Part shown: positions 32,091 through 33,771 of the stretch, one piece after another | Numbering within the stretch: the first letter of the stretch is position 1 | Layout of the letters: each line of letters begins with the position of its first letter | Sequence record: PZ151149.1 | Length of the DNA stretch: 64,000 bases | Strand: one strand, 5' to 3' | Source of the DNA: a phage | Notes under the pieces: generated by a model | Seen by the model: only the letters and a program-made list of their open reading frames with translations | Databases searched by the model: none | What the model was told of the DNA's origin: nothing | Program-made: the position numbers and the translations under genes

Positions 32091-32120
32091 TTTTGATTCT
32101 CCTTTGTTGTCGATGTGTGC

Positions 32121-32149
32121 ATTATGCTATACACTATTCCGGTTGTCAA
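32121..32149 (-). promoter_or_regulatory. Early promoter TTGACA-17-CATAAT
   Basis: On minus strand upstream of 31881..32090. Confidence 0.45.
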
Positions 32150-32157
32150 CACCTAAA

Positions 32158-32186
32158 AACAAAAAAGCCACCCTTTCGGATGGCTT
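32158..32186 (-). terminator. Rho-independent terminator
   Basis: Minus-strand hairpin AGCCAUCC-GAAA-GGGUGGCU + UUUUUUG. Confidence 0.6.
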
Positions 32187-32418
32187 TTGATTATATTTTA
32201 TTCACGTCCATTTGTATAGTAGTGTTTGAATCGACCTTTGCTAAACTAGTTAAACATAGTAACCAATTCACCATCCCTTTCCAATGATAACCCTTCCTCG
32301 TCTTAGACGGGTCTTCCGATTCGGCAGTAATTGAACACGCGAAAGTATGAGGAAGCCAAATAGTTGTGTTAATGCTAGTATTCTTTTACTTATGGTATGC
32401 ATCCCACGGTGACTAACA

Positions 32419-32817
32419 TTAAGCCAGTCGAGTGAGTTTATAAATTGTTTTAAAGCATAGAGCTTTGATATCGTCTAAAATGCTCTGTAACGAGCTATCA
32501 ACATCATTATAAATCTCACTAGCCATTTGCGTTAACTCTTGCAAATAGGCAATTTCGCTAATCTCCTTGCGGACGACCAACTTTGGCTGATAACGACCAG
32601 TGATCCCAATATTGGTTTCAGTGAAATTATCAACCAATTCTTGCATTTCAAGATAGAACTCTTCTAGAGCCTTATGTTTTGCATAAGATCCAGGACCAGT
32701 TACCCCAAAATGCGCAGAATGCATATAAGTAACACTCATCAGACATTCACCGATAAAGCGGTCAACTTTATTAGCCTTTCCCTCTTCGGAAGTCTTTAGA
32801 AAATCACTGAATTTCAT
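32419..32817 (-). CDS. Dps/ferritin-like protein
   Basis: HSAHFGVTGPGSYAKHKALEEFY matches the Dps ferroxidase-site signature (H[WF].V.GP.F...H...EE.Y); ATG at 32817 with GGAGAATC SD. Confidence 0.55.
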   Translation of the reverse strand: MKFSDFLKTSEEGKANKVDRFIGECLMSVTYMHSAHFGVTGPGSYAKHKALEEFYLEMQELVDNFTETNIGITGRYQPKLVVRKEISEIAYLQELTQMASEIYNDVDSSLQSILDDIKALCFKTIYKLTRLA

Positions 32818-33106
32818 GTTCTCGATTCTCCATATTATGCAACAGAACAAATTGTTGTGCGGCATATCCCCCCATAATAAAACACTGCCTAGAATCCATA
32901 CATTTACTACGAGCATACATCTTCATAATATGGGCATGAAATTTCTGGCTGGTTTCAATGGAAGGAGATATTTTGTTTACATATACTATCATTGCGCCGT
33001 CGAAATAATCAGTAAAGTCACCAGTTGGATCATATTGATCAGCACTGACACTTCCGACCGCAGTCAAGCATATTGCCGCTGTTAGAGTTTTACGAATAAA
33101 TGACAT
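32804..33106 (-). CDS. hypothetical secreted protein (N-terminal signal peptide)
   Basis: MSFIRKTLTAAICLTAVGSVSA-DQ... typical Sec signal. Confidence 0.5.
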   Translation of the reverse strand: MSFIRKTLTAAICLTAVGSVSADQYDPTGDFTDYFDGAMIVYVNKISPSIETSQKFHAHIMKMYARSKCMDSRQCFIMGGYAAQQFVLLHNMENREHEIQ

Positions 33107-33174
33107 AAGTCATTCCCCCAGATTGAAAATATTCAGTTATATTTATAATCCGGGGCTTTATTTATGATTAACTC

Positions 33175-33771
33175 TTATTTGGTAGTACCATCAATAAAAT
33201 GTTTACGACACACAGAAACATATTTATCCTCTGCACCAACTTCTATTTGAGCACCATCGCGAATAACATTACCATCTTTATCTACGCGAAGGACCATAGT
33301 CGCTTTCTTGCCACAATGACAAATACCCTTCATTTCGACCAGTTTATCAGCAAATGCCATTAATGCCGCAGATCCTTCAAATAGATTGCCCTGAAAGTCA
33401 GTGCGAAGGCCATAGCACAGTACAGGGATATTAGCATCATCAACAAGCGCACACAAGCCTAAAACATGCTCTTTAGTCATAAATTGGGCTTCATCTACAA
33501 ATACAGCATCAGGACGCCAGCGATCCGTTCTACGCTTACCTAACGATTCACGATAAACCAAGTCGAAAAGATCATCCGATTTAGTGAAGGTGATCGCTGG
33601 AGCACTTAGGCCAATTCGGGAAACGACTTCACTTTCTGAATCTCGATTATCAATCGCTGGCTTAAGAATTAATACTCGCATATCACGTTCTGTATAGTTA
33701 TAAGCACTTTGTAACAGAGAAGTTGATTTGCCAGCGTTCATAGATGCATAGTAGAAATATAATTGCGCCAT
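33175..33771 (-). CDS. tk: Thymidine kinase
   Basis: Walker A AMNAGKST, VDEAQF, CYGLRTDF, VCR.H; strong similarity to T4 Tk. Confidence 0.9.
   Translation of the reverse strand: MAQLYFYYASMNAGKSTSLLQSAYNYTERDMRVLILKPAIDNRDSESEVVSRIGLSAPAITFTKSDDLFDLVYRESLGKRRTDRWRPDAVFVDEAQFMTKEHVLGLCALVDDANIPVLCYGLRTDFQGNLFEGSAALMAFADKLVEMKGICHCGKKATMVLRVDKDGNVIRDGAQIEVGAEDKYVSVCRKHFIDGTTK

What the first reader, a model, noticed from the sequence alone, without database searches (positions are those of the whole stretch)
32419..32817. Phage-encoded Dps/ferritin-like protein
The segment HSAHFGVTGPGSYAKHKALEEFY fits the Dps ferroxidase-centre signature, in a protein of the right size (~133 aa) with its own promoter/leader. 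Dps proteins sequester iron and protect DNA from oxidative damage. I do not recall one as a usual T4-like gene, so it may reflect adaptation to the host's oxidative or iron stress during infection.
Basis: partly seen in the sequence, partly recalled or inferred. Interest (0 to 1): 0.5.

Follow-up and report, generated by a model that had tools for sequence, protein, structure and literature searches.

The report
T4 rI.-1 gene: a mini-Dps
The ORF is the RB49-type copy of the T4 gene rI.-1, a small Dps-like four-helix protein that keeps every iron-oxidation-site residue; it is a standard gene of T4-like phages, and its iron chemistry has never been tested.

Summary

- The gene is not unusual. 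It is the orthologue of T4 rI.-1 (Pfam DUF5856, PHROG 858) and occurs in 1,434 phage records.
- It has no promoter or leader of its own. Its ATG overlaps the last 14 nt of the antiholin gene rI. The operon has a T4-type late promoter upstream of rI.

The protein is a trimmed Dps: 132 aa, no BC helix, a short helix C and no cationic tail. It misses the curated Ferritin and Dps model thresholds.

Most likely it is an iron-binding, iron-oxidising mini-ferritin made late in infection together with RI. Assembly state and activity are untested. The gene family and its Dps-like label are already in databases, so interest is modest.

The parts
32419..32817 (-). CDS of the rI.-1 orthologue (DUF5856, mini-Dps-like), 132 aa plus stop
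   Evidence: ORF list and translation. Pfam DUF5856 75.6 bits against a cut-off of 34.6. PHROG 858 E 3e-43. 99% identical to the annotated CDS of Escherichia phage MIZ4 and to RB49 rI.-1.
32617..32712 (-). Codons for the Dps-type ferroxidase-centre segment H36...E67. Ligand codons: H36 32712-32710, H48 32676-32674, Y55 32655-32653, D63 32631-32629, E67 32619-32617.
   Evidence: Unique motif match in the window. Ungapped register with E. coli and L. innocua Dps. Invariance across 172 family representatives.
32804..33106 (-). rI antiholin (lysis inhibition) CDS, 100 aa; its last 14 nt overlap the start of rI.-1
   Evidence: PHROG 1246 'lysis inhibition' E 2.7e-25. Annotated 'lysis inhibition' in MIZ4. 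Overlap read from the sequence.
33140..33147 (-). T4-type late-promoter box TATAAATA, 34 nt upstream of the rI start; likely promoter of the rI / rI.-1 operon
   Evidence: Pattern search and sequence. T4 has a late promoter at the equivalent position between tk and the rI operon (PMC2962797). The box alone is no more frequent than chance in the window (5 found, 6.3 expected), so the assignment rests on position.
32163..32188 (-). Intrinsic-terminator-like stem-loop (11 bp stem plus T run), about 230 nt downstream of the rI.-1 stop; probable end of the operon
33175..33771 (-). Thymidine kinase (tk); synteny anchor tk-rI-rI.-1 as in T4
   Evidence: PHROG 592 E 1e-80. Same gene order in T4, T6 and MIZ4.

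Best explanation
The ORF is the Krischvirus (RB49-type) orthologue of bacteriophage T4 gene rI.-1, a member of Pfam DUF5856. It is a trimmed descendant of the Dps (mini-ferritin) family.

Shown: it is a 15-kDa acidic four-helix bundle that keeps the complete Dps-type ferroxidase ligand set. This set is two His on helices A and B and Asp plus Glu on helix B, with the nearby radical-trapping Tyr. It lacks the short BC helix, part of helix C and any lysine-rich DNA-binding tail.

Shown: it is transcribed with the antiholin gene rI, probably from a late promoter upstream of rI, and its start overlaps the rI stop, which suggests translational coupling.

Inferred mechanism: two subunits pair as in Dps. 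His36/His48 of one subunit face Asp63/Glu67 of the other, forming iron sites that bind Fe(II) and oxidise it with O2 or H2O2. This removes Fenton-active iron late in infection. The benefit would be greatest during the prolonged, DNA-filled state of lysis inhibition that RI establishes.

Not known: whether it closes into a 12-mer iron-storing cage, and whether it has any activity.
For: Identity and orthology:
- DUF5856 and PHROG 858 matches.
- tblastn finds 1,434 phage records. In about 24 of 40 sampled rows the match also overlaps a gene labelled rI, lysis inhibition or antiholin, or a second feature. Several records name the hit rI.-1.
- tk-rI-rI.-1 synteny in T4, T6 and MIZ4.

Homology to Dps:
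- phmmer against PDB: Dlp-2 9e-5, Dlp-1 2e-4, B. brevis Dps 2e-4, S. aureus Dps 3e-4.
- A 107-sequence profile against PDB: S. aureus Dps 1.7e-5, HP-NAP 5e-5.
- Foldseek top hits are mostly Dps, probability 1.0, TM 0.6-0.74.
- AlphaFold models with pLDDT 87 and 92 show four helices.

Ligands:
- Ungapped register with the verified E. coli and L. innocua Dps sequences.
- Conservation over 172 representatives: H36 170/170, H48 169/170, D63 170/171, E67 171/171, Y55 166/172.
- The ligands are also kept in T6, Aeromonas and Ackermannviridae homologues.

Expression and operon:
- Start-stop overlap, late-promoter box and terminator.
- The T4 operon is described in PMC2962797.
- The Ackermannviridae homologue Sajous1 gp217 (43% identical) was detected by LC-MS/MS and called 'Ferritin' by Phyre2 (PMC10892097).

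Link to lysis inhibition: over-expressed T4 rI.-1 slightly prolongs lysis inhibition and relieves RIII toxicity (PMC2962797).
Against: - No biochemical data exist for any family member.
- The protein does not reach the curated thresholds. Pfam Ferritin PF00210 gives no hit, and only 2 of 107 relatives reach E about 0.02. NCBIfam Dps scores 15 bits against a cut-off of 114.
- It is 10-35 residues shorter than solved Dps chains. The BC helix, which sits at the Dps two-fold interface, is missing, and helix C has only 18 residues. The Dps-type dimer or dodecamer may therefore not form.
- Multimer modelling could not be run.
- The domain also occurs inside proteins of 700-1,900 aa, which is hard to reconcile with a closed cage.
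- Most family members have an A-B loop 3 residues shorter. hhalign then pairs H33, not H36, with E. coli H51, at only 27% probability.
- Some T4 laboratory lines carry a frameshifted rI.-1, so the gene is dispensable in the laboratory.
Confidence: 0.55

Rival explanations
1. A lysis-inhibition accessory protein. RI.-1 acts through protein-protein contacts with RIII or the cytoplasmic part of holin T to stabilise lysis inhibition. The conserved His/Asp/Glu site is structural or regulatory (for example a metal or redox sensor), not a ferroxidase.
For: - Operon with rI, with overlapping start and stop.
- Genetic data in T4: over-expression prolongs lysis inhibition, acts synergistically with rIII, needs functional RIII, and relieves RIII toxicity (PMC2962797; summarised in PMC6832632).
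Against: - The effects were small and came from over-expression only.
- Homologues with the same invariant residues occur in Ackermannviridae and in Aeromonas phages next to genes that are not recognisable as rI, and in about 1,900 clusters in all. The core function therefore cannot depend on RI.
- Near-total invariance of exactly the four Dps metal ligands is what a catalytic metal site predicts.
Confidence: 0.2
2. An iron chaperone, iron store or virion-associated iron carrier. The protein collects Fe(II) late in infection to supply iron-containing phage proteins or is itself packaged. Candidate clients are the His-coordinated iron ions of T4-type long-tail-fibre tips and NrdB. This is the 'Ferrojan horse' idea.
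For: - Late-promoter operon.
- Sajous1 gp217, a 43%-identical homologue, gave 10 spectra in CsCl-purified virions. Its authors proposed a ferritin-linked entry system (PMC10892097).
- Iron in the T4 gp37 tip is established knowledge recalled from memory (Bartual et al. 2010); it was not checked here.
Against: - The Sajous1 preparation also contained DNA-metabolism and lysis proteins, so co-purification is not proof of packaging. A dense iron-loaded cage could simply co-band with virions.
- TonB and FeoB host mutants were infected normally.
- No capsid-targeting or cleavage motif is evident in the N-terminus (inspection only).
- I know of no report of RI.-1 in T4 virions (own knowledge).
Confidence: 0.15
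3. A DNA-binding protein or 'starvation-inducible transcriptional regulator', as the PHROG-derived annotation says. It would bind phage or host DNA and regulate or compact it.
For: The database label of PHROG 858, and a weaker hit to PHROG 3636 'DNA binding protein' (E 6e-7). Some Dps proteins bind DNA.
Against: - No DNA-binding domain was found.
- pI is 5.4. The first 20 residues carry 5 K/R against 4 D/E, so there is no lysine-rich tail like that of E. coli Dps.
- The label appears to be a garbled transfer of the Dps name ('DNA protection during starvation'). No experiment supports it in the papers searched.
Confidence: 0.05

Closest known systems
Bacteriophage T4 RI.-1 (gene rI.-1; Pfam DUF5856; PHROG 858)
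   Same: Same family by curated thresholds. Same position and orientation directly after rI and near tk, with the start overlapping the rI stop. Similar length (132 aa against 128-129 aa). The same invariant residues.
   Different: Only about 33% identical to the T-even proteins. The RB49 clade has a 3-residue insertion (G-P-G) in the A-B loop that restores the canonical Dps spacing His-x11-His. rI.1 is absent from the operon here.
Dps / mini-ferritin family (E. coli Dps, L. innocua Dps, B. anthracis Dlp-1/Dlp-2, H. pylori NAP)
   Same: Significant sequence similarity over helices A and B. Same four-helix fold. The complete intersubunit ferroxidase ligand set plus the conserved Tyr and Gly positions, in an ungapped register. 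No intrasubunit ExxH motif of the ferritin or bacterioferritin type is seen by inspection of the sequence.
   Different: Shorter (132 aa against 142-175 aa). No BC helix and a short helix C. Phe or Leu replaces the Trp next to the first ligand. Below the Pfam Ferritin and NCBIfam Dps cut-offs. No cationic tail. Oligomeric state and activity unknown. Encoded by lytic phages rather than in a cellular stress regulon.
Salmonella phage Sajous1 gp217 and other Ackermannviridae 'ferritin-like' proteins
   Same: 43% identity, E 1e-29. Same invariant residues (PP35 and Chennai homologues). Predicted to be a ferritin by Phyre2 and shown to be expressed (PMC10892097).
   Different: 117 aa, lacking the N-terminal roughly 20 residues. 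Lies near the primase gene rather than next to an rI gene.
Canonical-length Dps genes of other phages (Lactobacillus myophages; gut 'Gratiaviridae' and crAss-like phages)
   Same: Phage-borne ferritin-superfamily proteins proposed to limit oxidative damage during infection (PMC8008677). BFVD fold matches to crAss-like 'DpsA'.
   Different: Those proteins are recognised by standard Dps and Ferritin models and are sporadic. DUF5856 is a separate, shorter clade that is near-universal in T4-like phages. PMC8008677 does not count it among phage Dps genes.

Membership tests
Pfam DUF5856 / PHROG 858 (T4 RI.-1 family) | Score above the curated family threshold | tested here: met
   PF19174 scores 75.6 bits against a gathering cut-off of 34.6, E 6.9e-21. 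PHROG 858 E 3.1e-43 over residues 1-131.
Pfam DUF5856 / PHROG 858 (T4 RI.-1 family) | Orthologous position: directly downstream of rI, near tk, same strand | tested here: met
   Order tk (33175-33771), rI (32804-33106), this ORF. Same order in T4, T6 and MIZ4. RB49 annotates the gene as rI.-1.
Dps (mini-ferritin) family | Four-helix-bundle ferritin-like fold | tested here: met
Dps (mini-ferritin) family | Short BC helix in the long B-C loop, at the two-fold interface | tested here: not met
   Residues 74-87 are non-helical in both models.
Dps (mini-ferritin) family | Intersubunit ferroxidase-centre ligands: His (helix A), His (helix B), Asp and Glu (helix B of the two-fold mate) | tested here: met
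   H36, H48, D63 and E67 match E. coli H51/H63/D78/E82 and L. innocua H31/H43/D58/E62 in an ungapped register (reference sequences verified). Invariant in 169-171 of about 171 relatives. That the residues meet across a dimer interface was not testable.
Dps (mini-ferritin) family | Match to curated family models (Pfam PF00210 Ferritin; NCBIfam PRK09448 Dps) | tested here: not met
   No PF00210 hit at E<=10, and only 2 of 107 relatives reach E about 0.02. NCBIfam Dps scores 15 bits against a cut-off of 114. Pairwise and profile hits to solved Dps proteins are nevertheless significant.
Dps (mini-ferritin) family | Dodecameric hollow shell (23 symmetry) | not testable with these tools
No multimer prediction is available.
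Dps (mini-ferritin) family | Fe(II) oxidation and iron-core formation | not testable with these tools
   This needs biochemistry. No published assay for any DUF5856 protein was found.
Dps (mini-ferritin) family | DNA binding through a cationic N- or C-terminal tail (present in some Dps proteins, not all) | tested here: not met
   pI 5.37. The first 20 residues hold 5 K/R and 4 D/E. There is no C-terminal extension.
Ferritin / bacterioferritin (maxi-ferritins) | Intrasubunit di-iron site with ExxH motifs on helices B and D; fifth E helix; 24-mer | tested here: not met

The most novel reading that the evidence does not exclude
T4-like and Vi1-like phages, about 1,400 sequenced genomes including T4 itself, all carry a working miniature ferritin that the phage literature has not recognised. 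In the T4 group it is built into the antiholin (rI) operon, so iron and peroxide detoxification would be coupled to lysis inhibition and would let the infected cell survive hours of delayed lysis. Alternatively, the iron-loaded particle supplies or accompanies the virion. The trimmed architecture (no BC helix, 115-135 aa, also found embedded in giant proteins) would then be a new minimal form of ferritin-superfamily assembly.
Probability: 0.3. Interest if true: 0.6.

Novelty: already known. Interest (0 to 1): 0.35.

Why it matters
If the protein really oxidises or stores iron, a conserved gene of unknown function in the classic T4 lysis-inhibition operon would gain a biochemical role. That role would connect lysis timing with oxidative and iron stress in the infected cell. 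It would also correct a widely propagated annotation ('starvation-inducible transcriptional regulator'). It would add a very small ferritin-superfamily scaffold (about 15 kDa) that may interest protein-cage engineers. As it stands, the gene, its family and its Dps-like label are already in public databases, and the window's copy is 97-99% identical to known RB49-type phages.

Tried and rejected
- The Pfam Ferritin and NCBIfam Dps models gave no usable hit. Homology had to be shown through PDB sequence searches and fold searches.
- hhalign of the family profile against the single E. coli Dps sequence gave only 27% probability. It used a register that places H33 opposite H51, because most relatives have a shorter loop. 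I prefer the ungapped H36 register, which the HMMER alignments to Gram-positive Dps proteins support. The ambiguity remains.
- Literature searches for 'DUF5856' found 0 papers. Searches for the PHROG label, for 'Dps-like phage-encoded', for Dps with T4-like, and for ferritin with lysis inhibition found no study of this family as a Dps. The exception is the Phyre2 remark on Sajous1 gp217.
- I looked for informative partner domains in long DUF5856 proteins and in the genomic context of the 1,934-aa member. Nothing was recognisable.
- The longer 165-aa reading from ATG 32916 was rejected. It lies inside rI in another frame, and the homologues start at MKFSDF.
- The 44-aa ORF at 32268..32402 has no family match.
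- The idea that the N-terminus is a T4 capsid-targeting sequence was considered. It is not supported by any motif or data.

Full report
**1. What is in the sequence**

The coordinates 32419..32817 hold a minus-strand ORF of 132 codons plus stop. Its sequence is MKFSDFLKTSEEGKANKVDRFIGECLMSVTYMHSAHFGVTGPGSYAKHKALEEFYLEMQELVDNFTETNIGITGRYQPKLVVRKEISEIAYLQELTQMASEIYNDVDSSLQSILDDIKALCFKTIYKLTRLA.

The mechanical ORF list also shows a longer 165-aa reading from 32916. That stretch lies inside the upstream gene in another frame. Homologues begin at MKFSDF, and a GGAG box lies about 10 nt upstream of 32817. I therefore take 32817 as the start.

A Dps-style pattern (H-[FWL]-x-[LIVM]-x-G-x6-H-x3-[DE]-x10-D-x3-E) occurs exactly once in the six-frame translation of the window. 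It occurs in none of 50 shuffles.

**2. Surroundings**

All features below are on the minus strand, listed in the direction of transcription.

| Feature | Coordinates | Evidence |
|---|---|---|
| Thymidine kinase (tk) | 33771..33175 | PHROG 592, E 1e-80 |
| Late-promoter box TATAAATA | 33147..33140 | |
| rI antiholin, 100 aa | 33106..32804 | PHROG 1246 'lysis inhibition', E 2.7e-25 |
| This ORF | 32817..32419 | |
| Stem-loop terminator | 32188..32163 | |
| Sigma-70-like promoter, 11 of 12 matches | 32149..32121 | |

- The ATG of this ORF lies inside rI. The overlap is ...GAA CAT GAA ATT CAG TGA in the rI frame and ATG AAA TTC AGT GAT in the new frame, 14 nt in all.
- No promoter-like site lies between the two starts.
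- The TATAAATA box sits 34 nt upstream of the rI start. That is where T4 has the late promoter of its rI operon (PMC2962797).
The gene is the distal member of an rI operon and is probably translationally coupled to rI. That last point is an inference from the overlap.

**3. Identity**

- Pfam places the protein in DUF5856: 75.6 bits against a cut-off of 34.6.
- PHROGs places it in family 858, E 3e-43, labelled 'starvation-inducible transcriptional regulator'.
- tblastn against 50,697 phage records finds it in 1,434. These include Escherichia, Klebsiella, Salmonella, Shigella, Enterobacter, Aeromonas, Yersinia and other phages.
- The closest records, at 96-99% identity, are Krischvirus (RB49-type) phages. 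RB49 itself annotates the gene as rI.-1.
- In about 24 of 40 sampled rows the match also overlaps a gene labelled rI, lysis inhibition or antiholin, or a second feature.
- T4 and T6 show the same tk-(rI.1)-rI-rI.-1 order.

The window's gene is therefore the orthologue of T4 rI.-1.

An exhaustive HMM search finds 1,905 cluster representatives at E<=1e-3 and 284 at E<=1e-10. Most are 113-145 aa long.

**4. Is it Dps-like?**

Yes, by three independent lines.

*(a) Sequence.*
- phmmer of the single protein against PDB sequences gives only Dps-family proteins at the top: B. anthracis Dlp-2 9e-5, Dlp-1 2e-4, B. brevis Dps 2e-4, S. aureus Dps 3e-4, MrgA 2e-3, HP-NAP 4e-3.
- A profile of 107 diverse relatives improves this to 1.7e-5 (S. 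aureus Dps) and 5e-5 (HP-NAP). The alignments run through the ligand motifs.

*(b) Fold.*
- AlphaFold gives a confident four-helix bundle. pLDDT is 87 with 17 sequences and 92 (pTM 0.85) with 107 sequences.
- The helices are 17-37, 44-73, 88-105 and 108-131, with a short N-terminal helix at 3-12.
- Foldseek's top PDB hits are mostly Dps, with probability 1.0 and TM 0.6-0.74, although E is only about 1e-2.

Both are 100% identical to PDB chains 1f30_A and 1qgh_A. The window protein aligns to both without gaps between residues 28 and 76:

| Window residue | L. innocua Dps | E. coli Dps |
|---|---|---|
| H36 | H31 | H51 |
| F37 | W32 | W52 |
| G41 | G36 | G56 |
| H48 | H43 | H63 |
| E52 | D47 | D67 |
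| Y55 | Y50 | (not matched) |
| D63 | D58 | D78 |
| E67 | E62 | E82 |
| G74 | G69 | G89 |

That H31/H43/D58/E62 (E. coli H51/H63/D78/E82) form the intersubunit ferroxidase centre is established knowledge of the family, recalled from memory. So is the role of Trp32 and Tyr50 as nearby radical traps.

Across 172 representatives these are the most conserved positions in the family:

| Residue | Conserved |
|---|---|
| H36 | 170/170 |
| H48 | 169/170 |
| D63 | 170/171 |
| E67 | 171/171 |
| Y55 | 166/172 |
| Y126 | 171/171 |
| D115 | 160/172 |

The ligands are kept in T6, in an Aeromonas phage and in Ackermannviridae.

**5. In what respects it is not a standard Dps**

- It is 132 aa, against 142-175 aa for the solved Dps chains.
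- The B-C loop (residues 74-87) has no BC helix, and helix C has only 18 residues.
- The Trp next to the first ligand is Phe here and Leu in most relatives.
- The protein is acidic, with pI 5.4. Its N-terminus has no net positive charge, so it lacks the lysine-rich tail that lets E. coli Dps bind DNA.
- It does not reach the curated models. There is no Pfam Ferritin hit, and only 2 of 107 relatives reach E about 0.02. NCBIfam Dps scores 15 bits against a cut-off of 114.
- Most relatives have an A-B loop three residues shorter. The RB49 clade carries a G-P-G insertion that restores the Dps spacing. Because of that, hhalign of the family profile against E. coli Dps pairs H33 with H51, at 27% probability. 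This ambiguity in register is not resolved. H36 is the invariant residue, whereas H33 is Trp in 20 of 172 relatives.
- Some relatives carry the domain inside proteins of 700-1,934 aa. Others have it at the N-terminus, followed by a conserved linker and highly variable C-terminal domains. That is difficult to fit into a closed 12-mer cage.
- I could not model a dimer or dodecamer.

**6. What is known experimentally**

- *T4 rI.-1.* It encodes a 129-aa, 14.6-kDa protein with pI 5.6 and unknown function, in one operon with rI and rI.1. The operon is transcribed from a late promoter and from a distant early promoter. Over-expression slightly prolongs lysis inhibition, acts synergistically with rIII and relieves RIII toxicity (PMC2962797). 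A 2019 review still calls the role 'as yet undefined' (PMC6832632). Neither paper mentions Dps or ferritin.
- *Dispensability.* T4 laboratory sublines differ by a frameshift in rI.-1 (179dupG, Glu61fs; PMC8573959). I found the same extra G, and in addition a His-to-Pro change at the H48-equivalent ligand, in T4 record OZ209057.1. The gene is therefore dispensable in the laboratory.
- *Ackermannviridae.* The homologue Sajous1 gp217 is 43% identical to the window protein, E 1e-29. It gave 10 spectra in CsCl-purified virions and was called 'Ferritin' by Phyre2 at 96.7% confidence. Its authors speculated about a 'Ferrojan horse' entry route but saw no dependence on TonB or FeoB (PMC10892097).
- *How the field counts phage Dps genes.* A 2021 survey states that Dps-like enzymes had been seen only in seven Lactobacillus phages and some gut phages (PMC8008677). 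This shows that the T4 family is not counted as Dps-like in the literature, even though annotation resources already label it so. Examples are PHROG 858, JGI's 'DNA-binding ferritin-like protein' and 'putative starvation-induced DNA protecting protein' in Dickeya phage PP35.

**7. Most likely mechanism**

Shown: homology to Dps, the fold, the invariant ligand set, operon membership with rI, and expression of a homologue.

Inferred:
- Subunits pair as in Dps, so that H36/H48 of one chain and D63/E67 of the other form iron sites.
- These sites bind Fe(II) and oxidise it with O2 or H2O2.
- This removes Fenton-active iron late in infection.

Because the gene travels with rI in the T4 group, the benefit would be greatest during lysis inhibition, when a cell packed with phage DNA is kept alive for hours. 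That reading would also accommodate the mild prolongation of lysis inhibition on over-expression.

Homologues with identical ligands occur in phages without a recognisable neighbouring rI. The core activity must therefore be independent of RI.

My confidence that the protein is a Dps-derived metal-binding protein is high, about 0.85. My confidence in the whole ferroxidase and protection scenario is about 0.55.

**8. Rivals**

- A protein-protein accessory factor of lysis inhibition that acts on RIII or T (0.2).
- An iron store, chaperone or virion-associated carrier (0.15).
- A DNA-binding regulator, as the database label says (0.05). No feature of the sequence supports this, and the label looks like a corrupted transfer of the Dps name.

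**9. Novelty and score**

- The window's gene is 97-99% identical to genes already deposited and named (RB49 rI.-1).
- The family has a Pfam and a PHROG entry, and its Dps-like nature is visible in annotations and in one paper on Vi1-like phages.
- What is not in the literature I could search is the explicit point that T4 rI.-1 itself keeps an intact, invariant Dps ferroxidase site. No biochemical test has been published either.

I rate the finding as already known at the level of the gene and family. There is a modestly interesting and directly testable functional hypothesis attached. Interest is 0.35.

Noticed in passing
window 32096-32188 (also 28766, 30858, 36739, 42404, 43365, 45359): A roughly 71-nt element is repeated 7 times in the window. 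It carries a minus-strand sigma-70-like early promoter (TTGACA-17-CATAAT at 32149..32121). Here it is preceded by a strong stem-loop terminator (32188..32163). It looks like the 'PeSL' promoter-early-stem-loop cassettes described for RB49-type phages (recalled from memory, not checked). blastn finds 3-5 copies per Krischvirus genome.
   Followed up: partly
L002 (T4 record OZ209057.1) 2501-2890: This T4 line has rI.-1 inactivated by an extra G (frameshift after codon 60). It also has His-to-Pro at the position equivalent to ligand H48. The same 179dupG frameshift is listed among differences between T4 laboratory sublines in PMC8573959.
   Followed up: yes
P0077 (1,934 aa, domain at 925-1049), P0127, P0128, P0126, P0087; locus L007: The DUF5856 domain is embedded in very large proteins that have no other recognisable domain. 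The one contig examined (L007) consists of unannotated ORFs, all on one strand.
   Followed up: partly
P0043, P0046, P0051, P0054, P0076, P0102, P0112, P0129, P0150, P0160, P0170: This subgroup is 210-390 aa long. It has a constant N-terminal DUF5856 domain (often Trp instead of H33), a conserved linker (approximately S-L-x-D-F/Y-I-x-E-S-L-N-E) and unrelated, highly variable C-terminal domains. The layout suggests a scaffold that displays swappable modules.
   Followed up: no
window 32189-32418, including ORF 32268..32402 (-): About 230 nt lie between the rI.-1 stop and the terminator. They hold only a 44-aa ORF with a hydrophobic stretch and no PHROG match. The region is 96-99% conserved, but only within Krischvirus, and is annotated as a hypothetical protein in some records.
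   Followed up: partly
L003, L004, L008 (Ackermannviridae: PP35, Chennai, Sajous1): In Vi1-like phages the homologue is 117 aa long. It sits in a conserved block of unknown genes (2.4-kb gene, 189 aa, 79 aa, DUF5856, 204 aa) just upstream of the DNA primase gene. The 79-aa and 189-aa neighbours were also detected in the Sajous1 virion preparation.
   Followed up: partly
BFVD hits A0A6J7WIS1 and A0A6J7XDU5: Two uncultured-phage proteins annotated 'Prohead protease' (432 and 333 aa) contain a region with a weak fold match to the model (E about 0.02, TM 0.63-0.72). If real, this would hint at capsid-targeted ferritin-like domains. It may equally be generic helical-bundle similarity.
   Followed up: no
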